A stretch of DNA of 20,000 bases from Flectonema sp. DT1601 (GCA_964019425.1 OZ025784.1:1721502-1741501); one strand, 5' to 3'. Shown: positions 1 through 20,000, counted from the stretch's first letter. Notes: a model not told the origin generated them from the sequence alone. Made by a program: numbers and translations.

Positions 1-1
1 C

Positions 2-424
2 GCGTCTGTAGGTAGTCGTCGTCAGATCGTTCACATACCATTAACAAACCTAACTCATGAAAATGCCCTGAATCTATTGAGACTTGACGAACTTAAAGGG
101 GCAGGGGATCTGGTAACTGAGTGGTCATTGAATATGTGTGCTGGTAATCCCCGTGCGATTGTGAGTCTCCCCGGAGTGATTAATGACGCAAAGTGTTTTG
201 GTACAGCTGGTCTTGCTTCACGCATAGCTAGTGGAATTTATAGAGCATGTATGTTTCAAACGCTTCACATTTCATTTGTTGAGGACCACCTCGCTGCAGT
301 TCTCACAAAGTCACTCAACAGTGCCACAGAGGATGCATTAAGAATTAGGGGTGCTCTCCACAAACTCTCCAATGGTGTTGAATGCTTAATTCCAATTTGG
401 TTTGGTTTGGGCATGGGCAAATGA
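2..424 (+). CDS. N-terminal portion (cut by the window edge) of a probable Crinkler/RHS-like protein; likely the C-terminal part of a P-loop NTPase module; frameshifts near 401-403 into the 402..1223 frame
   Basis: The frame of ORF 77..424 is open from base 2 (ASVGSRRQIVHIPLTNLTHENALNLLRLDE...). 'IVHIPL...CAGNPRAI' resembles the hhPL...GxPR motifs that follow STAND/Crinkler-type NTPase cores. Family call is motif recognition by eye, not a search. Confidence 0.5.
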   Translation, partial: ASVGSRRQIVHIPLTNLTHENALNLLRLDELKGAGDLVTEWSLNMCAGNPRAIVSLPGVINDAKCFGTAGLASRIASGIYRACMFQTLHISFVEDHLAAVLTKSLNSATEDALRIRGALHKLSNGVECLIPIWFGLGMGK

Positions 425-1223
425 AAAGCACACAAAGATGGTTGGGGAGTGGCTGGTTGGGGAGTGGTTGATTGAATATTTCGGCAGTGATGCAAACATG
501 AACCCCAAAACATTTGAAGAGACAACACTCTACTTTGAAGGGCTTCTGAACCATGCATACAGACAGCTGAAGAAAACACCATTTCTGAGTGAATATTTTG
601 ATGGGGCTGACCATATCCAGGAAAACATAAAAGAATTGATTGTTCACCCCAGGAAAGTGTTAAGAGCGGAAGAACCTTCATCCCTTAGCAGCTTGGGATC
701 TGAAGAGCTTTACAATAAGCTCCAATCTGGACAAGCTGTGTACTCGAAAAATGTTGTCGGAGAGGGTGGTGACATTCTGATCCCTTTGATGCTCTCTGAA
801 GGAAAGAAAAAGGCAACGCTCTACCTATTCTGTGCCCAGTGCAAACTAGCAAAGAGAGTCGATAGCCTCCAAGAAGTAGAAACGAAGGCTGTGGAAATTC
901 CAGCTGTCCAGGAACTCCAGGCTTGGGCGAATAAACAGAAGAAACCACTTGATGTACATGGTCTTTATTTCACCACACACACACCCAAGCTTCAAACTGC
1001 AAAGCGGAAGGGTGTTTGGTTCACAAAGGATTCTATGGAGAAGTGGCTGAGCAGACTTGGTTTGCCAAGAGTCAATTACCACCATGCAAGAACCTCAACA
1101 TCTGGTAGCTCCGCATTACTCAGACACCGGGCGATGAGCTGGTCTACACAACAAAGACCCCATCTACCCACAGCTAGATGCAATGCCCCAAACCTTTTAC
1201 GGCGAATCTGTAGATTTTTGTAG
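402..1223 (+). CDS. C-terminal portion of the same gene; probable PD-(D/E)xK restriction-endonuclease-fold domain (CR-REase-like)
   Basis: 273-codon non-repetitive ORF. Motif order 'TFEE' ... 'GGDIL' ... 'LFCAQCK' fits the E..D..QxK pattern of REase-fold domains in Crinkler/RHS proteins. Removing one T from TTT at 401-403 fuses it to the upstream frame (LIPIWLVWAWANEK). Confidence 0.6.
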   Translation: MVWAWANEKHTKMVGEWLVGEWLIEYFGSDANMNPKTFEETTLYFEGLLNHAYRQLKKTPFLSEYFDGADHIQENIKELIVHPRKVLRAEEPSSLSSLGSEELYNKLQSGQAVYSKNVVGEGGDILIPLMLSEGKKKATLYLFCAQCKLAKRVDSLQEVETKAVEIPAVQELQAWANKQKKPLDVHGLYFTTHTPKLQTAKRKGVWFTKDSMEKWLSRLGLPRVNYHHARTSTSGSSALLRHRAMSWSTQQRPHLPTARCNAPNLLRRICRFL

Positions 1224-2558
1224 AACTTTGATTTCTTATATTTCTATGGTGGCTTCAGTTACACCTTGAGAAAGAAAAAAAGAACCTTCTGGTACAATGC
1301 TGAGTCATCGTCCATTGCCTTCTCGGATCCCATGAGTTCTTTTAAGATGCTTTAATCCGCCGTTCTCCAATAGATTTAAGAAAGGTCCCTCAATTTCTTT
1401 TTAAGGGAAAATGCGTGTCTACTACTGCGTTCCATAGGCTAATCGAGCTGGTATTCGCTATGTAGGTTTACTGTTCCTTGATAGAAGAAATTCCCAAAAG
1501 TCCTTCAAAGTTTGTTTTAAAAAAAACCAAAAACTATGAAACAATAAAGAAGAAGAAGACGAATAGGAAGAATGAACGTGTGAAGGAAAAAAATAAATAA
1601 ATAGTATGCTAAAATCCAAGGTCCGGCGCAGTTATGACATTAAGTTGACTGTCATCTTACCTGATCCTTTTGGTTTTCATTTCTTGCTGAGTGATATGGC
1701 TATGTGCTGCCCAAATCTTTTGTGGTACGTTTCTAAAGCTTTTCGGTAAGCCCACAGTACAATTATAATGCTTTGGGCAACTGGGGGTGAACGATCCTCG
1801 GCACTGTTCCGGGGTTTTCTATTTTCTTTCGTGGAGTGTGGGCATATGGCACATGTGGTCGTATTATAAAGAAAGGTGTATATGAAAGAAAGAAGATTTT
1901 TTATTTTTTTCACCTTCAGATCATTTCTCTTTTATTTTCTTTAGTTGTTTACAACCTGTTAGCCTCTGGGCAAGGCTCGCTTCGCTTGCGCAAAGTTATT
2001 TATTTTTTCTGAATTAAGCTTGTTTTTCCTTTGCCTAAGCATGCAAAACTTAAAACGATGGCTAGGTAATAGTGAGTACGTCGCTTATTTCAAGTTGCCC
2101 ATTTTTATCTTTCTGAACAACCTTATTTTACAACCAAGTGAGTTTTTATTCCCTGTCAGGCTTTTTGGCCTCATCCTTTCTGTTGTTCTATCTCTCAGTT
2201 AATTTTAGTTTTCTGTTTCATTCAGCTTTTTCTTAGCAAACGCAAACTGAACTTAAAAACAAATAATCTTCTGCCAAAGCTTTTTGCAGCAGACATTGAA
2301 TTTTATGTCTGCTTCTTCCCTCCTTCGTTCCTTCTCGGTTCCTCTTTCTCAGTATTTTAAGTAACCCATTTCTATTTTCTTGATGTGATACTTCTGCTTT
2401 GCCTTCCGCTAACTTTTGGGAGGGCTTCATCACCAACGCTTTCTTTTTTGAGCCTTTTGTCGTTGTTCTGTTAGTTTCTGTCCCACCCAGCTCTTAGGCA
2501 GCACCTTATAGTAGGCCCCAATTTCCTTGGAACCCAAAAAATCCCCAATACTGGTATT

Positions 2559-2584
2559 AAACCCGCAAAACCTGCAAACCTGCA
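2559..2584. repeat. Degenerate 3-unit remnant or seed of the octamer repeat (AAACCCGC AAAACCTGC AAACCTGC A)
   Basis: Followed by the same CTAGAGATACCC junction as the arrays ending at 4282 and 8734. Upstream flank ATTTCCTTGGAACCCAAAAAATCCCCAAT resembles ATTTCCTCAGAACCCAAAATATCCCCAAT upstream of the 8430 array. Confidence 0.85.
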
Positions 2585-2699
2585 CTAGAGATACCCTTCC
2601 AGGCTCGCACACAACTTTTTTTTTTAAAGCTTTCTGAGCAAACATCATTTTTACAACCAAGTCACGTCTGTTTTTATTCCCTGGCTAGGTACCCGTCCA

Positions 2700-2763
2700 G
2701 GGTACAAATTTGAACTTAACTTTACGCTCGCTTCGCTCGCGTTAAGTTAAGTCCAATGTACCC
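2700..2763. other. Imperfect hairpin with a GCTCGCTTCGCTCGC centre, copy A (right arm 3 nt shorter than in B and C)
   Basis: GGGTACAAATTTGAACTTAACTTTACGC ... GCGTTAAGTTAAGTCCAATGTACCC. Confidence 0.85.
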
Positions 2764-2802
2764 TTTTCCTTGCTAATTTTTCTGGTTGAAAAACACAAAA
2801 AA

Positions 2803-2872
2803 TGTGCCTGGGAATTGAACCCTTGCCACGGCTACCGAAGAGATTTAAGGTATCCACTCGGCTGTGCAGCCC
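2803..2872 (-). pseudogene. Degenerate tRNA-like / Pol III type-2 promoter unit (also at ~4524-4593 and ~8980-9049)
   Basis: Minus strand reads CAGCCGAGTGG (A-box-like), then GGTTCAATTCC (B-box) ~44 nt later, then a T-run. Cloverleaf stems do not pair well, so it is not an intact tRNA. Confidence 0.45.
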
Positions 2873-2895
2873 TGGGATTTTCTTTTTTTTTTATA

Positions 2896-2977
2896 CTGTA
2901 AAGGGAAATTCTTGTGGGGAAAAACCCGCGAGTTTGAAAAAAAATCTCCAAATCCGCGAGAATATTTCCCTTTACAG
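2896..2977. mobile_element. 82-bp MITE with 14-bp perfect TIRs and a TA target-site duplication (Tc1/mariner-pogo-type signature)
   Basis: TA|CTGTAAAGGGAAAT...ATTTCCCTTTACAG|TA. Removing the element and one TA gives TTTTATATTTATTTATTTGTGTG, the sequence at the paralogous empty site in copy C (~9066-9088). Confidence 0.88.
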
Positions 2978-4060
2978 TATTTATTTATTTGTGTGTTCTT
3001 AGCCTCTTTATGGAAATCCTTCCATTTTCCCTTCCCTCCAGTCTTAACATAGGAGAGTCTACCAGGTGCCTACCCTGGACGCCCTTCGGGCGCGGGATTT
3101 GAACTAATTGCGTGTACGGGCGCGATGGGTTATTGCAGTGGCAGGGGGTCGAACCAGCGATCACCCAGCCTTTTTTTTTTAACAGGCCCAAAGGGCGACA
3201 ATGAAAGATGCTGACCAAGGAATAATATTCAAATGAATTTTTGTTTCAAAGAAACAAACAGGATTAAGGGAGAGGCAGAAAAAAAAAAAAAAAATAATAT
3301 GAAGAGGAAATAATCAAACATGAAAAAAAAAGATAAAATAAAAATAAATAAACGTTATATATAAGCAATTTCTTTTTTTTTCCGCAATTTTCTATTTATT
3401 TATTACTTTTCTGTCCCAACGGGACGACAAATGAAAAATGTCCTCCCTTAGCTGAAAATGCACACTGCACCCTGTTTTATCAAGTCCTTTGTTTTTGTTT
3501 TTCTGAAAGATATCTGTAGTTGTTGTTATATGCTAGCACGAAAACGACAGCTAGGTTTATGATGATTGGATATCTGTTTGTTACATTTGGAAGTATTTTA
3601 CAACAGGTTTATCGAACCTGTATCTGCAATGTGTGCGACCCTGGGATGGGAATATAGGAATTTAGTTATATTAATAAGGTTATCGTTCATTATTTCCAAT
3701 AAAATAGAAATGTGGGAAGAACTATGGGATGGCGGGACGCAGCCCCCCCCCCCAACCCCCCCCAAGGGGGGGGAGCCACTAATAAAGGCCAACCTCCTGA
3801 AAAAGAATCAAGAAAAAACAAAAATGCCCTCACCCAGGGTCGAACTGGTTTACAGCCATTTTGGGTTTTGTAAAGAATGGTTAGTTCTGAAACTATTTGT
3901 GTAGGAAAGACCCTTTACCCAAAAAGAAATGAAATCAAAGATTGCTTTTTCACAGCTTGGCACCTAAAATCCAAAACTCATTAAGAAGGAAAAAATTATT
4001 TCAAAAAGAAAGTTTTTGCTAACTAAATTGGCAGCCATACACCTAAATTTCAAAACCATA

Positions 4061-4282
4061 CCCGCAAACCCGCAAACCCGCAAACCCGCAAACCCGCAAA
4101 CCCGCAAACCCGCAAACCCGCAAACCCGCAAACCCGCAAACCCGCAAACCCGCAAACCCGCAAACCCGCAAACCCGCAAACCCGCAAACCCGCAAACCCG
4201 CAAACCCGCAAACCCGCAAACCCGCAAACCCGCAAACCCGCAAACCCGCAAACCCGCAAACCCGCAAACCCGCAAACCCGCA
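4061..4282. repeat. Telomere-like octamer array (CCCGCAAA), ~28 units
   Basis: Perfect tandem 8-mer, 222 bp. Confidence 0.98.
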
Positions 4283-4403
4283 CTAGAGATACCCCTTCCA
4301 GGCTCGCGTTGCTCGCACAATTTTTTTTTTAAGCTTTCTGAACAAACATTATTTTTACAACCAAGTCACGTCTGTTTTTATTCCCTGGCTAGGTACCCGT
4401 CCA

Positions 4404-4470
4404 GGGTACAAATTTGAACTTAACTTTACGCTCGCTTTGCTCGCGTTAAGTTAAGTCCAATTTTGTACCC
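4404..4470. other. Hairpin with 28-bp arms (25/28 complementary) and 11-nt loop, copy B (copy C at 8860-8926)
   Basis: Left arm GGGTACAAATTTGAACTTAACTTTACGC versus reverse complement of the right arm GGGTACAAAATTGGACTTAACTTAACGC. Confidence 0.9.
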
Positions 4471-4770
4471 TTTTCCTTGCTACTTTCTTCTTACTAATTT
4501 TTCTGGTTGAAAAACACAAAAAATGTGCCTGGGAATTGAACCCTTGCCACGGCTACCGAAGAGATTTAAGGTATCCACTCGGCTGTGCAGCCCTGGGATT
4601 TTCTTTTTTTTTTTTATTTATTTATTTGTGTGTTCTTAGCCTCTTTATGGAAATCCTTCCATTTTCCCTTCCCTCCAGTCTTAACGTAGGAGAGTCTACC
4701 AGGTGCCTACCCTGGATGCCCTTCGGGCGCGGGATTTGAACTAATTGCGTGTACGGGCGCGATGGGTTAT

Positions 4771-4841
4771 TGCAGTGGCAGGGGGTCGAACCAGCGATCA
4801 CCCAGCCCCAGGGCGAGGGTTATACCACTACCCTGGGATAT
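4771..4841 (-). pseudogene. Degenerate tRNA-like sequence resembling tRNA-Gly (also ~9227-9298; partly deleted in copy A)
   Basis: Minus strand TAGTGGTATAACCCTCGCC...GGTTCGACCCCCTGCCACTGCA resembles the eukaryotic tRNA-Gly pattern CAGTGGTAGAATTCTCGCC...GGTTCGATTCCCGGCCAATGCA. Acceptor and anticodon stems are not intact. Confidence 0.4.
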
Positions 4842-5463
4842 CGCAACTTTTTATTATTATTACTTTTCTGCAATTTTTATTTATAAATAAGTTTTCGAAA
4901 AGGTGAGAAGTAACGGGCTGGGAGCTTTTGGCTCCTGCCCTATTCCCGATGTAAACTTTCTTTTCTTTTTTTTTTTTTTTTTAAACAGGCCCAAGGGGCG
5001 ACAATGACTGTTGCTGACCAAGGAATAATATTCAAATGAATTTTCGTTTCAAAGAAACGAACAGGATTAAGGGAGAGGCAGAAAAAAAAAAAAAAAATAA
5101 TATGAAGAGGAAATAATCAAACATGAAAAAAAAAAATAAAATAAAAATAAATAAACGTTATATATAAGCAATTTCTTTTTTTTTTTGCAATTTTTTATTT
5201 ATTTATTACTTTTCTGTCCCAACAGGACGACAAATGAAAAATGTCCTCCCTTAGCTGAAAATGCACACTGCACCCTGTTTTATCAAGTCCTTTGTTTTTG
5301 TTTTTCTGAAAGATATCTGTAGTTGTTGTTATATTAATATGCTAGCACGAAAACGACGGCTAGGTTTATGATGATTGGATATGTGGCTTAGGTTATCTGT
5401 TTGTTACATTTGGAAGTATTTTACAACAGGTTTATCGAACCTGTATCTGCAATGTGTGCGACC

Positions 5464-7246
5464 GAAATAAGCAGCTAAGGTTTGCTTGCGGGAAGAGAAT
5501 CAGCAGCTAAAATTTGCTTGCGGGAAGAGAATCAGCAGCTAAAATTTGCTTGCGGGAAGAAAATAAGCAGCTAAAATTTGCTTGCGGGAAGAAAATAAGC
5601 AGCTAAAATTTGCTTGCGGGAAGAAAATAAGCAGCTAAGGTTTGCTTGCGGGAAGAGAATCAGCAGCTAAAATTTGCTTGCGGGAAGAGAATCAGCAGCT
5701 AAAATTTGCTTGCGGGAAGAAAATAAGCAGCCAAAATTTGCTTGCGGGAAGAAAATAAGCAGCTAAAATTTGCTTGCGGGAAGAAAATAAGCAGCCAAAA
5801 TTTGCTTGCGGGAAGAAAATAAGCAGCTAAAATTTGCTTGCGGGAAGAAAATAAGCAGCTAAGGTTTGCTTGCGGGAAGAGAATCAGCAGCTAAAATTTG
5901 CTTGCGGGAAGAAAATAAGCAGCTAAAATTTGCTTGCGGGAAGAAAATAAGCAGCCAAAATTTGCTTGCGGGAAGAAAATAAGCAGCTAAGATTTGCTTG
6001 CGGGAAGAGAATCAGCAGCTAAAATTTGCTTGCGGGAAGAAAATAAGCAGCTAAAATTTGCTTGCGGGAAGAAAATAAGCAGCTAAAATTTGCTTGCGGG
6101 AAGAAAATAAGCAGCTAAAATTTGCTTGCGGGAAGAAAATAAGCAGCTAAGATTTGCTTGCGGGAAGAGAATCAGCAGCTAAAATTTGCTTGCGGGAAGA
6201 AAATAAGCAGCTAAGGTTTGCTTGCGGGAAGAGAATCAGCAGCTAAAATTTGCTTGCGGGAAGAAAATAAGCAGCTAAGATTTGCTTGCGGGAAGAGAAT
6301 CAGCAGCTAAAATTTGCTTGCGGGAAGAGAATCAGCAGCTAAAATTTGCTTGCGGGAAGAGAATCAGCAGCTAAAATTTGCTTGCGGGAAGAAAATAAGC
6401 AGCTAAAATTTGCTTGCGGGAAGAAAATAAGCAGCTAAAATTTGCTTGCGGGAAGAAAATAAGCAGCTAAGGTTTGCTTGCGGGAAGAGAATCAGCAGCT
6501 AAAATTTGCTTGCGGGAAGAGAATCAGCAGCTAAAATTTGCTTGCGGGAAGAAAATAAGCAGCCAAAATTTGCTTGCGGGAAGAAAATAAGCAGCTAAAA
6601 TTTGCTTGCGGGAAGAAAATAAGCAGCTAAGGTTTGCTTGCGGGAAGAGAATCAGCAGCTAAAATTTGCTTGCGGGAAGAAAATAAGCAGCTAAAATTTG
6701 CTTGCGGGAAGAAAATAAGCAGCCAAAATTTGCTTGCGGGAAGAAAATAAGCAGCTAAAATTTGCTTGCGGGAAGAAAATAAGCAGCTAAGATTTGCTTG
6801 CGGGAAGAGAATCAGCAGCTAAAATTTGCTTGCGGGAAGAAAATAAGCAGCTAAAATTTGCTTGCGGGAAGAAAATAAGCAGCTAAAATTTGCTTGCGGG
6901 AAGAAAATAAGCAGCTAAAATTTGCTTGCGGGAAGAAAATAAGCAGCTAAGATTTGCTTGCGGGAAGAAAATAAGCAGCTAAAATTTGCTTGCGGGAAGA
7001 AAATAAGCAGCTAAAATTTGCTTGCGGGAAGAAAATAAGCAGCCAAAATTTGCTTGCGGGAAGAGAATCAGCAGCTAAAATTTGCTTGCGGGAAGAAAAT
7101 AAGCAGCTAAAATTTGCTTGCGGGAAGAAAATAAGCAGCTAAAATTTGCTTGCGGGAAGAAAATAAGCAGCCAAAATTTGCTTGCGGGAAGAGAATCAGC
7201 AGCTAAAATTTGCTTGCGGGAAGAAAATTAGCAGCCAAAATTTGCT
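5464..7246. repeat. 32-bp minisatellite, ~56 units, consensus AAAATTTGCTTGCGGGAAGAAAATAAGCAGCT
   Basis: Head-to-tail units without spacers. Variants AAAA/AAGG/AAGA, GAAAATAAG/GAGAATCAG, GCT/GCC. Confidence 0.98.
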
Positions 7247-7380
7247 CTGGGGTGCTACATAAGCATTGATTGCAGAAAGGTGGCAAAAATGAAAGGAATT
7301 ATTTATTAAAACCCAAATTGTCTAAACCATAACAGAAAGAAAGCTTGGCACCAAAACCCTAAAACCTATTCTCCTCAGGG

Positions 7381-7632
7381 ATTTGTGAAGCCTTTTCGGG
7401 ATCGATAGGCCAAGGGATAACCATAAAAAAGGTGTAACCATGATTTCTTGGAGGTGAGTGGCACAAAAAGCAGTAAAAAAAAAAAAAAAAAATCCCGTGA
7501 CAAAGGCAAATAACTGCAAAAGCAGCAATTCTCTTTCCGCAAACGCCCCCCCGTTTAACATGCCACACTCTACCTTTCTTCCCGTAATGCGTGACACCAT
7601 TCAACACTTACGTAGCACTTAGCACCAGGCCT
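7381..7632 (+). repeat. Diverged ~250-280 bp direct repeat, copy 1 (copy 2 at ~8025-8304)
   Basis: Shared ATTTGTGAAG.CTTTTCGGG, GATAACCATAAAAAA, TGGAGGTGAGTGGC, poly-A, CCGTGACAAAGGCAAATAAC and CCGTAATGCGTG.CACCA.TCAACACTTA. Confidence 0.88.
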
Positions 7633-7968
7633 GCCAGCAGGAAGAAACAGAAGCCTCATTCTCAGTACGGAAGTAGCTAGGCCTGGCCAGCTTACATAGC
7701 ACTTCTGAGCAACCTAATATTATTCCTGCAATGCGTGACACTATTACGTAGCACTTGGCACCAGGCCTGCCAGCAGGAAGAAACAGAAGCCTCATTCCCA
7801 GTACGGAAGTGGCTAGGCCTGGCCAGCTTACATAGCACTTCTGGGTGACCTAATATTATTCCTGTAATGCGTGACACTATTACGTAGCACTTAGCATCAG
7901 GCCTGCTAGCAGGAAGAAACAGAAGCCTCATTCCCAGTACGGAAGTAGCTAGGCCTGGCCAGCTTACA
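7584..7968. repeat. 136-bp tandem repeat, ~2.8 units
   Basis: TTACGTAGCACTT recurs at 7608, 7744 and 7880 (period 136), with near-identical intervening sequence. Confidence 0.93.
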
Positions 7969-8024
7969 GTGCTGTGTAAGTTTTGACTGGCAAACAACTG
8001 CAAAACTTTTTTCTCCACCCAGAA

Positions 8025-8304
8025 ATTTGTGAAGACTTTTCGGGGCCGATAGATCGAGAGATAACCATAAAAAAAGATGTACTCATGATTTTTTGGAGGT
8101 GAGTGGCGCAAAGTGGTAAAAAAAAAAAAAAAAATTCCGTGACAAAGGCAAATAACAGCAATTTTCTTTCTGCAAACGCCCGCCGTGGATCATCAGACTG
8201 TCATTTGGTAGCGCCGACTTGCCACAGGTCAATATGCAACGCTACTTTTCTTTCCGTAATGCGTGGCACCAGTCAACACTTATGTTGCACTTAGAACCAG
8301 ACCT
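8025..8304 (+). repeat. Diverged direct repeat, copy 2 (of 7381-7632)
   Basis: Same shared motifs as copy 1. Confidence 0.85.
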
Positions 8305-8429
8305 TCTTGCTGGAATGCAAAGAAGAATTAGTGTGTAATTAGGTGAGGCCTGGCCTGGGTACCTGGCCCAGGACTTGGTGGATTTCCTCAGAACCCAAAA
8401 TATCCCCAATGCTGACAATTATATAGGAG

Positions 8430-8734
8430 AAACCCGCAAACCCGCAAACCCGCAAACCCGCAAACCCGCAAACCCGCAAACCCGCAAACCCGCAAACCCG
8501 CAAACCCGCAAACCCGCAAACCCGCAAACCCGCAAACCCGCAAACCCGCAAACCCGCAAACCCGCAAACCCGCAAACCCGCAAACCCGCAAACCCGCAAA
8601 CCCGCAAACCCGCAAACCCGCAAACCCGCAAACCCGCAAACCCGCAAACCCGCAAACCCGCAAACCCGCAAACCCGCAAACCCGCAAACCCGCAAACCCG
8701 CAAACCCGCAAACCCGCAAACCCGCAAACCCGCA
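8430..8734. repeat. Telomere-like octamer array (AAACCCGC), ~38 units
   Basis: Perfect tandem 8-mer, 305 bp, ending CCCGCA|CTAGAG. Confidence 0.98.
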
Positions 8735-10360
8735 CTAGAGATACCCCTTCCAGGCTCGCGTTGCTCGCACACAACTTTTTTTTTTTAAGCTTTCTGAACA
8801 AACATTATTTTTACAACCAAGTCACGTCTGTTTTTATTCCCTGGCTAGGTACCCGTCCAGGGTACAAATTTGAACTTAACTTTACGCTCGCTTCGCTCGC
8901 GTTAAGTTAAGTCCAATTTTGTACCCTTTTCCTTGCTACTTTCTTCTTACTAATTTTTCTGGTTGAAAGACACAAAAAATGTGCCTGGGAATTGAACCCT
9001 TGCCACGGCTACCGAAGAGATTTAAGGTATCCACTCGGCTGTGCAGCCCTGGGGTTTTCTTTTTTTTTTATATTTATTTATTTGTGTGTTCTTAGCCTCT
9101 TTATGGAAATCCTTCCATTTTCCCTTCCCTCCAGTCTTAACGTAGGAGAGTCTACCAGGTGCCTACCCTGGACGCCCTTCGGGCGCGGGATTTGAACTAA
9201 TTGCGTGTACGGGCGCGATGGGTTATTGCAGTGGCAGGGGGTCGAACCAGCGATCACCCAGCCCCAGGGCGAGGGTTATACCACTACCCCTGGGATATCG
9301 CAACTTTTTATTATTTATTTATTATTTATTACTTTTCTGCAATTTTTATTTATAAATAAGTTTTCGAAAAGGTGGGAAGTAACGGACTGGGAGCTTTTGG
9401 CTCCTGCCCTATTCCCGATGTAAACTTTCTTTTTTTTTTTTTTTTTTTCTTTTTTAACAGGCCCAAAGGGCGACAATGAAAGATGCTGACCAAGGAATAG
9501 TATTCAAATGAATTTTTGTTTCAAAGAAACAAACAGGATTAAGGGAGAGGCAGAAAAAAAAAAAAAAAATAATATGAAGAGGAAATAATCAAACATGAAA
9601 AGAAAAGATAAAATAAAAATAAATAAACGTTATATATAAGCAATTTCTTTTTTTTTTCGCAATTTTTTATTTATTTATTACTTTTCTGTCCCAACGGGAC
9701 GACAAATGAAAAATGTCCTCCCTTAGCTGAAAATGCACACTGCACCCTGTTTTATCAAGTCCTTTGTTTTTGTTTTTCTGAAAGATATCTGTAGTTGTTG
9801 TTATATTAATATGCTAGCACGAAAACGACAGCTAGGTTTATGATGATTGCATATGTGGCTTAGGTTATCTGTTTGTTACATTTGGAAGTATTTTACAACA
9901 GGTTTATCGAACCTGTATCTGCAATGTGTGCGACCCTGGGATGGGAATATAGGAATTTAGTTATATTAATAAGGTTATCGTTCATTATTTCCAATAAAAT
10001 AGAAATGTGGGAAGAACTATGGGATGGCGGAACGCAGCCCCCCCCCCAACCCCCCCCAAGGGGGGGGAGCCACTAATAAAGGCCAACCCCCTGAAAAAGA
10101 ATCAAGAAAGAACAAAAATGCCCTCACCCAGGGTCGAACTGGACGGTTTACAGCCATTTTGGGTTTTGTAAAGAATGGTTAGTTCTGAAACTATTTGTGT
10201 AGGAAAGACCCTTTACCCAAAAAGAAATGAAATCAAAGATTGCTTTTTCACAGCTTGGCACCTAAAATCCAAAACTCATTAAGAAGGAAAAAATTATTTC
10301 AAAAAGAAAATTTTTGCTAACTAAATTGGCAGCCATACACCTAAATTTCAAAACCATACC
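8735..10360 (+). repeat. Array-associated block, copy C (most complete; continues through 10361-10718 into the 32-bp satellite)
   Basis: Collinear with copy A up to CAAAACCATACC and with copy B up to GCGACC (9935). Confidence 0.95.
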
Positions 10361-10650
10361 ACTTACTAACAAAATTTCTTTCTCATCACTTTTTATATTT
10401 TAAGAAAATGGTTAACAGGAATTTATGAAGACTTTTGGATAGATCAACTATGTGTTCCCATCTTTTTTAGGAGATCTGTAGAAAAGAATAAATCTTTCAG
10501 AAAATATTATAAAGGGAAGATTTCTTCTGAAGAATTTTTTTTTAACTACCTACTAAATTGGCAACCATACACTTAAATTTCAAAACCATACTAAAAAAGA
10601 ATTTTCATCACATTTTATACTTTAAGAAAATAAATGGTTACCCATCTTTT
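10318..10650 (+). repeat. Diverged local direct duplication (~232-bp offset)
   Basis: CTAAATTGGCAGCCATACACCTAAATTTCAAAACCATAC (10321) versus CTAAATTGGCAACCATACACTTAAATTTCAAAACCATAC (10553). Similarity continues to TTTAAGAAAAT...GGTTA. Confidence 0.8.
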
Positions 10651-10718
10651 TTAGACCTGCTCGGGCACAAAAATCCAGCATTTTTCCTTAGGCAAATAAA
10701 TCTTACTTACTTCCTACT

Positions 10719-10871
10719 GAAGAAAATTGGCAGCTAAAATTTGTTTGCGGGAAGAAAATAAGCAGCTAAAATTTGCTTGCGGGAAGGGAATCAGCAGCTA
10801 AAATTTGCTTGCGGGAAGAAAATAAGCAGCTAAAATTTGCTTGCGGGAAGAGAATCAGCAGCCAAGATTTG
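10719..10871. repeat. Short copy of the 32-bp minisatellite (~4.8 units), interrupted by an octamer array
   Basis: Same unit as 5464-7246. The first unit is degenerate and contains a perfect TTTGCGGG (10744-10751). Confidence 0.95.
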
Positions 10872-11114
10872 CCCGCAAACCCGCAAACCCGCAAACCCGC
10901 AAACCCGCAAACCCGCAAACCCGCAAACCCGCAAACCCGCAAACCCGCAAACCCGCAAACCCGCAAACCCGCAAACCCGCAAACCCGCAAACCCGCAAAC
11001 CCGCAAACCCGCAAACCCGCAAACCCGCAAACCCGCAAACCCGCAAACCCGCAAACCCGCAAACCCGCAAACCCGCAAACCCGCAAACCCGCAAACCCGC
11101 AAACCCGCAAACCC
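10872..11114. repeat. Telomere-like octamer array (CCCGCAAA), ~30 units
   Basis: Perfect tandem 8-mer, 243 bp. Confidence 0.98.
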
Positions 11115-11572
11115 AAAGAGCTTAAGTTGATACTCTTTTCAATGTCACTATAGTCCATTTTGATAACGTTTTCCACAACAGATCTGGAAAATAGTAATTC
11201 GCGATTGCAGGTGTCGTTGAGAATCATATCCTTCGTACGGACTTTCATCTTAAGAGCACAGGTCTTTGAGACCGACAGGGCCATGTCGTTGTCAGAACAC
11301 CATTGATCCACTTTATCAAGTATTATTTGAGCACTTGAAAGAGCTTCTTCCATGTTATGTCCAGATACTACACATGCTGTATCATCCGCATACAGAGCAG
11401 ACGTCGTTGTTTCTTTCTCCAGTTCCAAAATCTTGCAGAGGTCATCAACGTAGATAAGATAGAGAAGAGGACCCAGGATCGATCCCTGTGGAACCCCCTT
11501 AGCCAGAGTACGGAATTCGCTAAAGTAACCATTCGCTTCAACTCTAACCTTCCTGTTTGTAAGAAAGTCTTG
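11115..11572 (-). mobile_element. Internal fragment of a non-LTR (LINE-like) retrotransposon reverse transcriptase, ~153 codons, truncated at both ends by octamer arrays
   Basis: Stop-free translation QDFLTNRKVRV...GVPQGSILGPLLYLIYVDDL...LYADDTA...WCSDNDMALSVSKT. GVPQGS at 11480-11497 and YADD at 11381-11392 are typical non-LTR RT core motifs. No endonuclease, 3' UTR or poly(A) tail. Confidence 0.93.
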
Positions 11573-14500
11573 CCCGCAAACCCGCAAACCCGCAAACCCG
11601 CAAACCCGCAAACCCGCAAACCCGCAAACCCGCAAACCCGCAAACCCGCAAACCCGCAAACCCGCAAACCCGCAAACCCGCAAACCCGCAAACCCGCAAA
11701 CCCGCAAACCCGCAAACCCGCAAACCCGCAAACCCGCAAACCCGCAAACCCGCAAACCCGCAAACCCGCAAACCCGCAAACCCGCAAACCCGCAAACCCG
11801 CAAACCCGCAAACCCGCAAACCCGCAAACCCGCAAACCCGCAAACCCGCAAACCCGCAAACCCGCAAACCCGCAAACCCGCAAACCCGCAAACCCGCAAA
11901 CCCGCAAACCCGCAAACCCGCAAACCCGCAAACCCGCAAACCCGCAAACCCGCAAACCCGCAAACCCGCAAACCCGCAAACCCGCAAACCCGCAAACCCG
12001 CAAACCCGCAAACCCGCAAACCCGCAAACCCGCAAACCCGCAAACCCGCAAACCCGCAAACCCGCAAACCCGCAAACCCGCAAACCCGCAAACCCGCAAA
12101 CCCGCAAACCCGCAAACCCGCAAACCCGCAAACCCGCAAACCCGCAAACCCGCAAACCCGCAAACCCGCAAACCCGCAAACCCGCAAACCCGCAAACCCG
12201 CAAACCCGCAAACCCGCAAACCCGCAAACCCGCAAACCCGCAAACCCGCAAACCCGCAAACCCGCAAACCCGCAAACCCGCAAACCCGCAAACCCGCAAA
12301 CCCGCAAACCCGCAAACCCGCAAACCCGCAAACCCGCAAACCCGCAAACCCGCAAACCCGCAAACCCGCAAACCCGCAAACCCGCAAACCCGCAAACCCG
12401 CAAACCCGCAAACCCGCAAACCCGCAAACCCGCAAACCCGCAAACCCGCAAACCCGCAAACCCGCAAACCCGCAAACCCGCAAACCCGCAAACCCGCAAA
12501 CCCGCAAACCCGCAAACCCGCAAACCCGCAAACCCGCAAACCCGCAAACCCGCAAACCCGCAAACCCGCAAACCCGCAAACCCGCAAACCCGCAAACCCG
12601 CAAACCCGCAAACCCGCAAACCCGCAAACCCGCAAACCCGCAAACCCGCAAACCCGCAAACCCGCAAACCCGCAAACCCGCAAACCCGCAAACCCGCAAA
12701 CCCGCAAACCCGCAAACCCGCAAACCCGCAAACCCGCAAACCCGCAAACCCGCAAACCCGCAAACCCGCAAACCCGCAAACCCGCAAACCCGCAAACCCG
12801 CAAACCCGCAAACCCGCAAACCCGCAAACCCGCAAACCCGCAAACCCGCAAACCCGCAAACCCGCAAACCCGCAAACCCGCAAACCCGCAAACCCGCAAA
12901 CCCGCAAACCCGCAAACCCGCAAACCCGCAAACCCGCAAACCCGCAAACCCGCAAACCCGCAAACCCGCAAACCCGCAAACCCGCAAACCCGCAAACCCG
13001 CAAACCCGCAAACCCGCAAACCCGCAAACCCGCAAACCCGCAAACCCGCAAACCCGCAAACCCGCAAACCCGCAAACCCGCAAACCCGCAAACCCGCAAA
13101 CCCGCAAACCCGCAAACCCGCAAACCCGCAAACCCGCAAACCCGCAAACCCGCAAACCCGCAAACCCGCAAACCCGCAAACCCGCAAACCCGCAAACCCG
13201 CAAACCCGCAAACCCGCAAACCCGCAAACCCGCAAACCCGCAAACCCGCAAACCCGCAAACCCGCAAACCCGCAAACCCGCAAACCCGCAAACCCGCAAA
13301 CCCGCAAACCCGCAAACCCGCAAACCCGCAAACCCGCAAACCCGCAAACCCGCAAACCCGCAAACCCGCAAACCCGCAAACCCGCAAACCCGCAAACCCG
13401 CAAACCCGCAAACCCGCAAACCCGCAAACCCGCAAACCCGCAAACCCGCAAACCCGCAAACCCGCAAACCCGCAAACCCGCAAACCCGCAAACCCGCAAA
13501 CCCGCAAACCCGCAAACCCGCAAACCCGCAAACCCGCAAACCCGCAAACCCGCAAACCCGCAAACCCGCAAACCCGCAAACCCGCAAACCCGCAAACCCG
13601 CAAACCCGCAAACCCGCAAACCCGCAAACCCGCAAACCCGCAAACCCGCAAACCCGCAAACCCGCAAACCCGCAAACCCGCAAACCCGCAAACCCGCAAA
13701 CCCGCAAACCCGCAAACCCGCAAACCCGCAAACCCGCAAACCCGCAAACCCGCAAACCCGCAAACCCGCAAACCCGCAAACCCGCAAACCCGCAAACCCG
13801 CAAACCCGCAAACCCGCAAACCCGCAAACCCGCAAACCCGCAAACCCGCAAACCCGCAAACCCGCAAACCCGCAAACCCGCAAACCCGCAAACCCGCAAA
13901 CCCGCAAACCCGCAAACCCGCAAACCCGCAAACCCGCAAACCCGCAAACCCGCAAACCCGCAAACCCGCAAACCCGCAAACCCGCAAACCCGCAAACCCG
14001 CAAACCCGCAAACCCGCAAACCCGCAAACCCGCAAACCCGCAAACCCGCAAACCCGCAAACCCGCAAACCCGCAAACCCGCAAACCCGCAAACCCGCAAA
14101 CCCGCAAACCCGCAAACCCGCAAACCCGCAAACCCGCAAACCCGCAAACCCGCAAACCCGCAAACCCGCAAACCCGCAAACCCGCAAACCCGCAAACCCG
14201 CAAACCCGCAAACCCGCAAACCCGCAAACCCGCAAACCCGCAAACCCGCAAACCCGCAAACCCGCAAACCCGCAAACCCGCAAACCCGCAAACCCGCAAA
14301 CCCGCAAACCCGCAAACCCGCAAACCCGCAAACCCGCAAACCCGCAAACCCGCAAACCCGCAAACCCGCAAACCCGCAAACCCGCAAACCCGCAAACCCG
14401 CAAACCCGCAAACCCGCAAACCCGCAAACCCGCAAACCCGCAAACCCGCAAACCCGCAAACCCGCAAACCCGCAAACCCGCAAACCCGCAAACCCGCAAA

Positions 14501-17500
14501 CCCGCAAACCCGCAAACCCGCAAACCCGCAAACCCGCAAACCCGCAAACCCGCAAACCCGCAAACCCGCAAACCCGCAAACCCGCAAACCCGCAAACCCG
14601 CAAACCCGCAAACCCGCAAACCCGCAAACCCGCAAACCCGCAAACCCGCAAACCCGCAAACCCGCAAACCCGCAAACCCGCAAACCCGCAAACCCGCAAA
14701 CCCGCAAACCCGCAAACCCGCAAACCCGCAAACCCGCAAACCCGCAAACCCGCAAACCCGCAAACCCGCAAACCCGCAAACCCGCAAACCCGCAAACCCG
14801 CAAACCCGCAAACCCGCAAACCCGCAAACCCGCAAACCCGCAAACCCGCAAACCCGCAAACCCGCAAACCCGCAAACCCGCAAACCCGCAAACCCGCAAA
14901 CCCGCAAACCCGCAAACCCGCAAACCCGCAAACCCGCAAACCCGCAAACCCGCAAACCCGCAAACCCGCAAACCCGCAAACCCGCAAACCCGCAAACCCG
15001 CAAACCCGCAAACCCGCAAACCCGCAAACCCGCAAACCCGCAAACCCGCAAACCCGCAAACCCGCAAACCCGCAAACCCGCAAACCCGCAAACCCGCAAA
15101 CCCGCAAACCCGCAAACCCGCAAACCCGCAAACCCGCAAACCCGCAAACCCGCAAACCCGCAAACCCGCAAACCCGCAAACCCGCAAACCCGCAAACCCG
15201 CAAACCCGCAAACCCGCAAACCCGCAAACCCGCAAACCCGCAAACCCGCAAACCCGCAAACCCGCAAACCCGCAAACCCGCAAACCCGCAAACCCGCAAA
15301 CCCGCAAACCCGCAAACCCGCAAACCCGCAAACCCGCAAACCCGCAAACCCGCAAACCCGCAAACCCGCAAACCCGCAAACCCGCAAACCCGCAAACCCG
15401 CAAACCCGCAAACCCGCAAACCCGCAAACCCGCAAACCCGCAAACCCGCAAACCCGCAAACCCGCAAACCCGCAAACCCGCAAACCCGCAAACCCGCAAA
15501 CCCGCAAACCCGCAAACCCGCAAACCCGCAAACCCGCAAACCCGCAAACCCGCAAACCCGCAAACCCGCAAACCCGCAAACCCGCAAACCCGCAAACCCG
15601 CAAACCCGCAAACCCGCAAACCCGCAAACCCGCAAACCCGCAAACCCGCAAACCCGCAAACCCGCAAACCCGCAAACCCGCAAACCCGCAAACCCGCAAA
15701 CCCGCAAACCCGCAAACCCGCAAACCCGCAAACCCGCAAACCCGCAAACCCGCAAACCCGCAAACCCGCAAACCCGCAAACCCGCAAACCCGCAAACCCG
15801 CAAACCCGCAAACCCGCAAACCCGCAAACCCGCAAACCCGCAAACCCGCAAACCCGCAAACCCGCAAACCCGCAAACCCGCAAACCCGCAAACCCGCAAA
15901 CCCGCAAACCCGCAAACCCGCAAACCCGCAAACCCGCAAACCCGCAAACCCGCAAACCCGCAAACCCGCAAACCCGCAAACCCGCAAACCCGCAAACCCG
16001 CAAACCCGCAAACCCGCAAACCCGCAAACCCGCAAACCCGCAAACCCGCAAACCCGCAAACCCGCAAACCCGCAAACCCGCAAACCCGCAAACCCGCAAA
16101 CCCGCAAACCCGCAAACCCGCAAACCCGCAAACCCGCAAACCCGCAAACCCGCAAACCCGCAAACCCGCAAACCCGCAAACCCGCAAACCCGCAAACCCG
16201 CAAACCCGCAAACCCGCAAACCCGCAAACCCGCAAACCCGCAAACCCGCAAACCCGCAAACCCGCAAACCCGCAAACCCGCAAACCCGCAAACCCGCAAA
16301 CCCGCAAACCCGCAAACCCGCAAACCCGCAAACCCGCAAACCCGCAAACCCGCAAACCCGCAAACCCGCAAACCCGCAAACCCGCAAACCCGCAAACCCG
16401 CAAACCCGCAAACCCGCAAACCCGCAAACCCGCAAACCCGCAAACCCGCAAACCCGCAAACCCGCAAACCCGCAAACCCGCAAACCCGCAAACCCGCAAA
16501 CCCGCAAACCCGCAAACCCGCAAACCCGCAAACCCGCAAACCCGCAAACCCGCAAACCCGCAAACCCGCAAACCCGCAAACCCGCAAACCCGCAAACCCG
16601 CAAACCCGCAAACCCGCAAACCCGCAAACCCGCAAACCCGCAAACCCGCAAACCCGCAAACCCGCAAACCCGCAAACCCGCAAACCCGCAAACCCGCAAA
16701 CCCGCAAACCCGCAAACCCGCAAACCCGCAAACCCGCAAACCCGCAAACCCGCAAACCCGCAAACCCGCAAACCCGCAAACCCGCAAACCCGCAAACCCG
16801 CAAACCCGCAAACCCGCAAACCCGCAAACCCGCAAACCCGCAAACCCGCAAACCCGCAAACCCGCAAACCCGCAAACCCGCAAACCCGCAAACCCGCAAA
16901 CCCGCAAACCCGCAAACCCGCAAACCCGCAAACCCGCAAACCCGCAAACCCGCAAACCCGCAAACCCGCAAACCCGCAAACCCGCAAACCCGCAAACCCG
17001 CAAACCCGCAAACCCGCAAACCCGCAAACCCGCAAACCCGCAAACCCGCAAACCCGCAAACCCGCAAACCCGCAAACCCGCAAACCCGCAAACCCGCAAA
17101 CCCGCAAACCCGCAAACCCGCAAACCCGCAAACCCGCAAACCCGCAAACCCGCAAACCCGCAAACCCGCAAACCCGCAAACCCGCAAACCCGCAAACCCG
17201 CAAACCCGCAAACCCGCAAACCCGCAAACCCGCAAACCCGCAAACCCGCAAACCCGCAAACCCGCAAACCCGCAAACCCGCAAACCCGCAAACCCGCAAA
17301 CCCGCAAACCCGCAAACCCGCAAACCCGCAAACCCGCAAACCCGCAAACCCGCAAACCCGCAAACCCGCAAACCCGCAAACCCGCAAACCCGCAAACCCG
17401 CAAACCCGCAAACCCGCAAACCCGCAAACCCGCAAACCCGCAAACCCGCAAACCCGCAAACCCGCAAACCCGCAAACCCGCAAACCCGCAAACCCGCAAA

Positions 17501-20000
17501 CCCGCAAACCCGCAAACCCGCAAACCCGCAAACCCGCAAACCCGCAAACCCGCAAACCCGCAAACCCGCAAACCCGCAAACCCGCAAACCCGCAAACCCG
17601 CAAACCCGCAAACCCGCAAACCCGCAAACCCGCAAACCCGCAAACCCGCAAACCCGCAAACCCGCAAACCCGCAAACCCGCAAACCCGCAAACCCGCAAA
17701 CCCGCAAACCCGCAAACCCGCAAACCCGCAAACCCGCAAACCCGCAAACCCGCAAACCCGCAAACCCGCAAACCCGCAAACCCGCAAACCCGCAAACCCG
17801 CAAACCCGCAAACCCGCAAACCCGCAAACCCGCAAACCCGCAAACCCGCAAACCCGCAAACCCGCAAACCCGCAAACCCGCAAACCCGCAAACCCGCAAA
17901 CCCGCAAACCCGCAAACCCGCAAACCCGCAAACCCGCAAACCCGCAAACCCGCAAACCCGCAAACCCGCAAACCCGCAAACCCGCAAACCCGCAAACCCG
18001 CAAACCCGCAAACCCGCAAACCCGCAAACCCGCAAACCCGCAAACCCGCAAACCCGCAAACCCGCAAACCCGCAAACCCGCAAACCCGCAAACCCGCAAA
18101 CCCGCAAACCCGCAAACCCGCAAACCCGCAAACCCGCAAACCCGCAAACCCGCAAACCCGCAAACCCGCAAACCCGCAAACCCGCAAACCCGCAAACCCG
18201 CAAACCCGCAAACCCGCAAACCCGCAAACCCGCAAACCCGCAAACCCGCAAACCCGCAAACCCGCAAACCCGCAAACCCGCAAACCCGCAAACCCGCAAA
18301 CCCGCAAACCCGCAAACCCGCAAACCCGCAAACCCGCAAACCCGCAAACCCGCAAACCCGCAAACCCGCAAACCCGCAAACCCGCAAACCCGCAAACCCG
18401 CAAACCCGCAAACCCGCAAACCCGCAAACCCGCAAACCCGCAAACCCGCAAACCCGCAAACCCGCAAACCCGCAAACCCGCAAACCCGCAAACCCGCAAA
18501 CCCGCAAACCCGCAAACCCGCAAACCCGCAAACCCGCAAACCCGCAAACCCGCAAACCCGCAAACCCGCAAACCCGCAAACCCGCAAACCCGCAAACCCG
18601 CAAACCCGCAAACCCGCAAACCCGCAAACCCGCAAACCCGCAAACCCGCAAACCCGCAAACCCGCAAACCCGCAAACCCGCAAACCCGCAAACCCGCAAA
18701 CCCGCAAACCCGCAAACCCGCAAACCCGCAAACCCGCAAACCCGCAAACCCGCAAACCCGCAAACCCGCAAACCCGCAAACCCGCAAACCCGCAAACCCG
18801 CAAACCCGCAAACCCGCAAACCCGCAAACCCGCAAACCCGCAAACCCGCAAACCCGCAAACCCGCAAACCCGCAAACCCGCAAACCCGCAAACCCGCAAA
18901 CCCGCAAACCCGCAAACCCGCAAACCCGCAAACCCGCAAACCCGCAAACCCGCAAACCCGCAAACCCGCAAACCCGCAAACCCGCAAACCCGCAAACCCG
19001 CAAACCCGCAAACCCGCAAACCCGCAAACCCGCAAACCCGCAAACCCGCAAACCCGCAAACCCGCAAACCCGCAAACCCGCAAACCCGCAAACCCGCAAA
19101 CCCGCAAACCCGCAAACCCGCAAACCCGCAAACCCGCAAACCCGCAAACCCGCAAACCCGCAAACCCGCAAACCCGCAAACCCGCAAACCCGCAAACCCG
19201 CAAACCCGCAAACCCGCAAACCCGCAAACCCGCAAACCCGCAAACCCGCAAACCCGCAAACCCGCAAACCCGCAAACCCGCAAACCCGCAAACCCGCAAA
19301 CCCGCAAACCCGCAAACCCGCAAACCCGCAAACCCGCAAACCCGCAAACCCGCAAACCCGCAAACCCGCAAACCCGCAAACCCGCAAACCCGCAAACCCG
19401 CAAACCCGCAAACCCGCAAACCCGCAAACCCGCAAACCCGCAAACCCGCAAACCCGCAAACCCGCAAACCCGCAAACCCGCAAACCCGCAAACCCGCAAA
19501 CCCGCAAACCCGCAAACCCGCAAACCCGCAAACCCGCAAACCCGCAAACCCGCAAACCCGCAAACCCGCAAACCCGCAAACCCGCAAACCCGCAAACCCG
19601 CAAACCCGCAAACCCGCAAACCCGCAAACCCGCAAACCCGCAAACCCGCAAACCCGCAAACCCGCAAACCCGCAAACCCGCAAACCCGCAAACCCGCAAA
19701 CCCGCAAACCCGCAAACCCGCAAACCCGCAAACCCGCAAACCCGCAAACCCGCAAACCCGCAAACCCGCAAACCCGCAAACCCGCAAACCCGCAAACCCG
19801 CAAACCCGCAAACCCGCAAACCCGCAAACCCGCAAACCCGCAAACCCGCAAACCCGCAAACCCGCAAACCCGCAAACCCGCAAACCCGCAAACCCGCAAA
19901 CCCGCAAACCCGCAAACCCGCAAACCCGCAAACCCGCAAACCCGCAAACCCGCAAACCCGCAAACCCGCAAACCCGCAAACCCGCAAACCCGCAAACCCG
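11573..20000. repeat. Long homogeneous telomere-like array (CCCGCAAA)n / (TTTGCGGG)n, >8.4 kb, ~1050 units, extending past the window
   Basis: No variant units seen by eye. The TnGGG-type unit with strong G/C strand asymmetry resembles telomerase-made repeats; telomeric function is inferred. Confidence 0.97.

What the first reader, a model, noticed from the sequence alone, without database searches (positions are those of the whole stretch)
11573..20000. Candidate non-canonical telomere repeat TTTGCGGG
Seen: more than 1000 apparently invariant copies of an 8-mer with a T3-GC-G3 layout. Known: telomerase repeats are typically short, G-rich on one strand and very homogeneous (TTAGGG, TTTAGGG, TTTTAGGG, TTTTGGGG). 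TTTGCGGG is not a telomere motif I recognise. It has a CpG in every unit, and its G3 tracts with 5-nt loops could form G-quadruplexes. Inference: a lineage-specific telomere sequence, or else an unusually homogeneous satellite.
Basis: partly seen in the sequence, partly recalled or inferred. Interest (0 to 1): 0.75.

Follow-up and report, generated by a model that had tools for sequence, protein, structure and literature searches.

The report
New telomere-type repeat, probable diplonemid
A flawless run of over 1,000 copies of the eight-letter unit TTTGCGGG is likely the chromosome-end repeat of what is probably a diplonemid (a marine flagellate whose studied relatives use TTAGGG), but here it points inward among patched-together leftovers of what are likely former chromosome ends, so it probably is not the cap of the DNA beside it.

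Summary
The array is real: 1,053.5 units at 11573-20000, no mismatch. It reads CCCGCAAA on the + strand, so the G-rich strand runs out of the array into the unique DNA, the wrong way for a cap on that DNA. Three more perfect tracts (223-305 bp) and an eroded relic share this polarity. They bound duplicated blocks and a 458-bp piece cut from inside a LINE reverse transcriptase. That LINE's closest named relatives are from the diplonemid Flectonema (50% over 1,264 aa). The tracts show no variant in 9,199 bp, while 24 of 55 neighbouring satellite units vary. A pure 8-mer contig stands at depth 2,625-5,000 in two short-read runs of one sample. Best reading: a telomerase repeat left inside a subtelomere by rounds of breakage, capture and healing, as described in Pyricularia. 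Terminal position, TERT and the RNA template could not be tested. No rotation of the motif is among 543 TeloBase motifs or in my paper searches. This scan has not noted it on other DNA. Verdict: new variant of a known kind, moderate interest.

The parts
11573..20000 (-). T4: perfect (TTTGCGGG)n array, at least 1,053 units; + strand reads CCCGCAAA; open at the window edge
11115..11572 (-). Captured internal piece of an APE-RT-RNase H LINE ORF (residues 546-696 of 1,253), open frame, cut inside the ORF at both ends, joined directly to T4 and T3
10872..11114 (-). T3: perfect tract, 243 bp (30 units); on the G strand it begins with one variant unit TTTGGG at the LINE break
10719..10872 (+). 32-bp satellite, 4.8 copies, cut by T3; its TTGCGGG-like core lies on the + strand, opposite to the tracts
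8735..10360 (.). Duplicated block U2 plus extension (1.1-1.9% substitutions against the other copies), abutting T2
8430..8734 (-). T2: perfect tract, 305 bp (38 units)
5465..7246 (+). 32-bp satellite, 55.7 copies, 8 unit variants; serves as in-window control for purity
4283..5463 (.). Duplicated block U1, abutting T1
4060..4282 (-). T1: perfect tract, 223 bp (28 units)
2584..4059 (.). Partial block U0 and extension
2559..2583 (-). T0: eroded three-unit relic (two units with CG>TG on the + strand) in the same left and right context as T2
2..1223 (+). Broken (frameshifted near 400) copy of a multicopy P-loop gene family, remotely Crinkler-like; context only

Best explanation
TTTGCGGG is likely the telomerase-made chromosome-end repeat of a probable diplonemid, and the five same-strand tracts in this window are likely former telomeres that became internal. 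Shown: the purity, the shared polarity, the broken junctions and the duplicated blocks. Inferred mechanism, read along the G strand from right to left: an end carrying the long array T4 gained a 458-bp piece copied from inside a young LINE. Telomerase healed the new end at a 2-nt seed (T3). That end in turn picked up satellite and block U from another subtelomere. The U-tract unit was then recopied (T2, T1), T1 and T2 starting at a 3-nt TGC seed of the older relic T0. In this reading the chromosome body lies beyond 20000 and the present end lies left of position 1. The alternative is that T4 is another chromosome's telomere fused to a broken end.
For: No variant in 9,199 bp of four tracts, while 24 of 55 neighbouring satellite units differ from the commonest and the U copies differ by 1.1-1.9%: this fits copying from one template and argues against polishing having erased variation. 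Unit form T3-x-G3, one substitution from the listed telomere motif TTTGAGGG and one insertion from Perkinsus TTTCGGG. The LINE piece is 97-98.7% identical to full-length copies and cut inside the ORF at both tract junctions. G-strand entry at U is CTCTAG-TGC-GGG against native CTCTAG-TGC-AGG. T0 and T2 share left context (29 of 33 bases, above all 1,000 shuffles). T1-T3 are of similar length. A pure 8-mer contig lies about 770-1,300 times deeper than flank contigs (depth is no copy number), and one further tract-to-unique junction exists outside the window. No tandem TTAGGG occurs in the window (2 single hits). The same layout, interstitial telomeres bounding a 4-kb subtelomeric repeat, is described for Pyricularia US71 (PMC8381367 section 28). 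Lineage: P0002 is 50% identical over 1,264 aa to a Flectonema LINE, against 29-34% over part of the RT for the 5 outside hits compared; these LINEs form one clade with FastTree support 1.0.
Against: No chromosome end was seen (no genome), and TERT and the RNA template were not testable. Euglena and Leishmania use TTAGGG, so the prior for a euglenozoan favours TTAGGG. T4 is about 30 times longer than T1-T3, which is odd for the innermost tract. The most eroded tract lies at the supposed distal side, and the satellite's telomere-like core points the other way. Seeds of 2-3 nt are weak evidence, and the LINE seed is inferred from protein only. T1 and T2 share one entry junction, so five tracts are at most three or four independent events (chance of one strand for three events is 0.25). 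The lineage rests on one mobile-element family. The depth ratio, taken at face value, would also fit one or two large arrays.
Confidence: 0.65

Rival explanations
1. The 8-mer is an ordinary young microsatellite or satellite (possibly centromeric or subtelomeric) spread by recombination, and the true telomere is another motif.
For: The array is not oriented as a cap for the adjacent DNA. A related core sits in the 32-bp satellite. Short runs of 3-13 units occur in 79 metagenome loci with no similarity to the window. Known euglenozoan telomeres are TTAGGG.
Against: No variant in 9,199 bp while the satellite next door varies. Tracts are attached at breaks inside an ORF. One polarity throughout. 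No TTAGGG tract in a region that looks subtelomeric.
Confidence: 0.15
2. The repeat is the telomere unit, but the length of T4 or its join to 11572 is an assembly product (an over-extended or misjoined contig end inside a repeat shared by all ends).
For: The array reaches the window edge and is far longer than the other tracts. No laid contig covered 11115-11572 or the T4 junction in either run (a hole proves nothing).
Against: T4's junction ends on the same base of the unit as T3's (GCGGG then CAA). T1-T3 are short enough to be spanned by single long reads and have the same polarity, so the inward layout does not depend on T4.
Confidence: 0.12
3. The right edge of the window is the chromosome end and this organism extends the C/A-rich strand, so its telomere has reversed polarity.
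For: The longest and purest tract is outermost on the right and the eroded relic is farthest left. The satellite's G-like core and the P-loop gene both point right. T1 has a 3-nt ACC match on this side.
Against: G-strand-out polarity is, from my own knowledge, the rule for telomerase repeats. On the C strand T3 and T4 start with 0-1 nt of seed, and T3 ignores an available GC match, whereas the G-strand entry at U has a 3-nt seed.
Confidence: 0.05
4. The LINE targets telomere repeats (TRAS/SART or MoTeR type) and the tracts are its split target sites.
For: A LINE piece sits between two tracts, and its family is large and young (101 cluster members).
Against: Both junctions fall inside the ORF (residues 546 and 696 of 1,253), with no 3' end or tail. 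The other tracts border non-LINE DNA.
Confidence: 0.03

Closest known systems
Interstitial telomeres bounding a 4-kb subtelomeric repeat in Pyricularia oryzae US71 and Arcadia (PMC8381367, passages and section 28 read)
   Same: Perfect tracts of about 20-40 units interspersed with, and bounding, full and truncated copies of a few-kb repeat; capture of other genomic sequence at failed ends; here T1 and T2 start 4,370 bp apart.
   Different: Different unit; a tract of at least 8.4 kb; the captured piece is a LINE ORF fragment; nearness to an end and breakage at the tracts are shown there but not testable here.
Short TnGm-type telomere units: TTTGAGGG (TeloBase Table S1, species not given there), TTTCGGG of Perkinsus marinus and TTTGGG of Naegleria gruberi (PMC3622300 section 16)
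   Same: T-run then G3, strand asymmetry, 6-8 nt; TTTCGGG also carries a CpG.
   Different: TTTGCGGG is absent in all eight rotations from the 543 listed motifs.
Euglenozoan TTAGGG telomeres (Euglena by TRAP, PMC3622300; Leishmania, PMC12676763; passages read)
   Same: Probably the same phylum.
   Different: The unit is 8 nt with an internal GC and no A on the G strand; I found no report of any diplonemid telomere motif.
Yeast Y' tandem arrays separated by telomere tracts, and TRAS/SART telomere-specific LINEs (both recalled, not from a call)
   Same: Telomere tracts of one polarity between repeated subterminal blocks.
   Different: U has no ORF of note; the LINE piece lacks both ends, so it is not a target-primed insertion.

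Membership tests
Telomerase-maintained telomere repeat | Short unit with a G-rich strand | tested here: met
   8-nt unit, 4 G and 3 T on the minus strand
Telomerase-maintained telomere repeat | Near-invariant copies | tested here: met
   0 variants in 9,199 bp against 24 of 55 variant satellite units
Telomerase-maintained telomere repeat | Terminal position on chromosomes | not testable with these tools
   No genome held; short-read contigs cannot show ends
Telomerase-maintained telomere repeat | This array caps the adjacent DNA with its G strand running 5'->3' outward | tested here: not met
Telomerase-maintained telomere repeat | Abundant and joined to several different unique sequences | tested here: inconclusive
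   Depth 5,000 and 2,625; 1 outside junction among 3 contigs laid; depth is no copy number
Telomerase-maintained telomere repeat | TERT and an RNA with a matching template | not testable with these tools
   No genome; Rfam scan of 1-11600 gave 8 weak matches, none at gathering score
Internalised telomeres in subtelomeric tandem arrays (Pyricularia type) | Tracts of one polarity bounding full and truncated copies of a few-kb repeat | tested here: met
   T0, T1 and T2 each abut block U
Internalised telomeres in subtelomeric tandem arrays (Pyricularia type) | Located near a chromosome end, with reads that terminate at the internal tracts | not testable with these tools
   No raw long reads or assembly available
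Telomere-specific LINE (TRAS/SART, MoTeR) | Element 3' end joined to the telomere repeat | tested here: not met
   Both junctions lie inside the ORF; other family members' flanks could not be read

The most novel reading that the evidence does not exclude
The window's right edge is a true chromosome end, and this lineage builds telomeres with the C/A-rich strand (CCCGCAAA)n running 5'->3' to the terminus. The nested tracts, oldest on the left and longest on the right, would be successive healings by a polymerase with an inverted template.
Probability: 0.05. Interest if true: 0.92.

Novelty: new variant of a known kind. Interest (0 to 1): 0.47.

Why it matters
If confirmed, it is a telomere motif not found in the lists and papers searched, and I found no earlier motif for any diplonemid. 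It would break the TTAGGG pattern of the euglenozoans studied so far. It gives a direct handle to find the diplonemid telomerase RNA (template about 1.5 units of CCCGCAAA), to ask how telomere-binding proteins and base J adapted, and to curate chromosome ends that a TTAGGG scan would miss. The window also records repeated telomere failure and capture in a free-living protist. New telomere motifs turn up regularly, so the surprise is moderate unless the polarity proves reversed.

Tried and rejected
No whole genome is held, so contig ends could not be tallied. Sequencing runs: no RNA holder listed. The LINE piece 11115-11572 had no cover in either run, and 10 (X1) and 21 (X2) of 30 bins of 1-4070 had none; holes prove nothing. 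A three-unit pattern found 0 matches in viral contigs and 79 loci in metagenomes with longest runs of 3-13 units (69 of 79 have 3-4), none similar to the window by blastn or tblastn. Four of the 79 run into a contig end (L035 G-strand out; L048, L062, L066 C-strand out); I judged these uninformative. Rfam gave nothing at gathering score. Pfam found no family for the two window ORFs at 2-421 and 390-1220. The deep profile search for the P-loop family never ran. The long 'ORFs' through the arrays are mechanical read-through of a stop-free repeat. A mitochondrial origin was considered: block U is at low depth, the neighbours are nuclear-type, and PMC7049700 has no such motif. CpG decay as the cause of T0 is weak: CpG observed/expected outside repeats is 0.64 but TpG+CpA is 1.02. 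Paper searches for the motif with 'telomer' found 43 and 37 papers; the 20 listed in each are, by title and abstract, unrelated to this motif, and the rest were not seen. Four tandem spellings found 0 papers. A six-term search was uninformative. The tree used 32 sequences: 31 of the 91 (of 122) hits that covered the RT domain, plus the window piece.

Full report
Observation. Positions 11573-20000 hold 1,053.5 copies of an 8-mer with no mismatch in 8,428 bp. The array is open at the window edge. The + strand reads CCCGCAAA; TTTGCGGG appears once on + and is the minus strand of the array. So the G-rich strand runs out of the array into the unique DNA. For an ordinary telomere capping that DNA it should run the other way (my own knowledge; PMC3622300 section 16 likewise uses position and orientation as criteria). 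The repeat exists in short reads too. Both runs that share words with the window give a 38-bp closed-cycle contig at depth 5,000 and 2,625, against 2-6.5 for most long flank pieces listed, a ratio of about 770-1,300. The runs are one sample, may be the window's source, and depth is no copy number.

Anatomy. Four more tracts share the polarity: T3 10872-11114 (243 bp), T2 8430-8734 (305 bp), T1 4060-4282 (223 bp) and an eroded three-unit relic T0 at 2559-2583. T0, T1 and T2 each abut the same block U, whose copies differ by 1.1-1.9%. T0 and T2 also share left context (29 of 33 bases; score 46 against at most 31 in 1,000 shuffles). Between T3 and T4 lies a 458-bp open piece of reverse transcriptase (Pfam RVT_1, E 9e-14). 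It is 97-98.7% identical to residues 546-696 of the closest 1,253-aa LINE proteins and cut inside the ORF at both ends. A 32-bp satellite (5465-7246, 10719-10872) carries a TTGCGGG core on the opposite strand. At 2-1223 is a frameshifted copy of a multicopy P-loop family known only from unnamed ENA records, remotely Crinkler-like by language-model features (rank 19, score 0.93). This mix looks subtelomeric (inference).

Lineage. The LINE family has 101 members in one cluster, on contigs from tens of kb to about 1 Mb. It shares contig lengths with the P-loop family (608,294; 285,601), so both probably come from one assembly. The closest named relatives are two Flectonema neradi proteins from EukProt: 50% over 1,264 aa and 41% over 1,258 aa, against 29-34% over part of the RT for five outside hits. 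In a tree of 32 RT domains they nest with the window piece and the ENA families in one clade with support 1.0. Flectonema is a diplonemid. The organism is thus probably a diplonemid; this rests on one mobile-element family.

Telomerase product or satellite. The four perfect tracts total 9,199 bp with no variant. Next door, 24 of 55 satellite units differ from the commonest. Variation is therefore kept by the assembly, and the tracts behave as if copied from one template. On the G strand, T1 and T2 begin CTCTAG-TGC-GGG where T0 reads CTCTAG-TGC-AGG, a 3-nt seed. T3 begins at the LINE break with a 2-nt seed (inferred from protein) and one variant unit, TTTGGG. Exits show 3, 1 and at most 1 nt of match where the native sequence can be judged (T1, T3, T4). 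One short-read contig of 585 bp begins with 30 bases of C-strand repeat and continues in DNA unlike any window junction (1 of 3 contigs laid); it cannot tell terminal from internal. The window has 2 single TTAGGG hits and no tract.

Mechanism. Best reading (0.65): telomerase adds TTTGCGGG; ends fail, pick up DNA from other subtelomeres or from a young LINE, and are healed again, which leaves former telomeres inside. PMC8381367 (passages and section 28 read) describes this in Pyricularia: interstitial telomeres of 6-34 units bounding a 4-kb repeat, and duplicative capture during repair. Shown here are the sequence layout, purity and junctions. Inferred are telomerase origin, order of events and where the end lies. 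Against it: T4 is about 30 times longer than T1-T3, the most eroded tract is on the supposed distal side, the satellite core points the other way, and the five tracts are only three or four independent events. These same points feed the bold rival, a telomere with the C strand running outward (0.05). A plain satellite (0.15), an assembly-inflated T4 (0.12) and a telomere-specific LINE (0.03) remain.

Comparison with what is known. No rotation of the motif is among the 543 motifs of TeloBase Table S1 (PMC10767889; supplement read whole; all eight rotations covered). The nearest is TTTGAGGG. That list dates from 2023 and the live database was not queried. Four tandem spellings found no paper, and single-unit searches listed only unrelated papers (20 of 43 and 20 of 37 seen). 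CpG-bearing units are known: TTTCGGG in Perkinsus. Euglena and Leishmania use TTAGGG (PMC3622300 and PMC12676763, passages), and Naegleria TTTGGG. For diplonemids I found no motif: PMC10161547 (passages and supplement search), PMC7052976 (passages), PMC8061765 (passages), PMC7049700 (term search, no hits), and searches. PMC13598402 (abstract, outline, term search) has no 'telomer' in the text held, but the search listing counts two occurrences in a longer version that I could not see; these may bear on novelty. PMC9498494 (passages) gave only general points on interstitial repeats. The scan's own notes hold no match to this motif or DNA.

Verdict. The unit is probably a telomere motif new to the literature searched, in a group with none on record in these searches, but terminal position and template are untested. 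New variant of a known kind; interest 0.47.

Noticed in passing
window 2-1223 (+): Broken copy of a multicopy 628-694 aa P-loop protein family with no Pfam family at cut-off. Close paralogues and a second group of 12 at 38-43% identity occur only in unnamed ENA records; language-model look-alikes are eukaryotic and include Crinkler-family clusters.
   Followed up: partly
window 11115-11572; proteins P0002, P0003, P0007-P0009: Several young APE-RT-RNase H LINE subfamilies (26-101 members each, many full length) form one long-branch clade with Flectonema LINEs.
   Followed up: partly
window 5465-7246 and 10719-10872: The 32-bp satellite contains TTTGCTTGCGGG, resembling the 8-mer with a 4-nt duplication, on the strand opposite to the pure tracts; possibly derived from the repeat and later inverted.
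   Followed up: partly
window 4402-4472 and 8858-8928 (variant near 2700-2765): A long imperfect palindrome inside block U, about 120 bp from each tract (predicted DNA hairpin of -21.6 kcal/mol for 4391-4480); it could be a breakage or protein-binding site.
   Followed up: no
window 7608-7968 and 7381-7643 / 8025-8315: A 136-bp tandem repeat (2.7 copies) and an older duplication at 72% identity in the spacer before T2.
   Followed up: no
window 2567-2608; run X1 record 1: The eroded relic T0 with the start of U also occurs behind another copy of the P-loop gene in a different arrangement, so the relic is itself a dispersed element.
   Followed up: no
L006, L008-L010, L018, L025, L030, L035, L052, L054, L055, L062: Twelve of the 79 metagenome loci come from one data set and hold degenerate G-rich arrays mixing TTTGCGGG with TTGGAGGG-like units, some at contig ends; organism not identified, no similarity to the window.
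   Followed up: no
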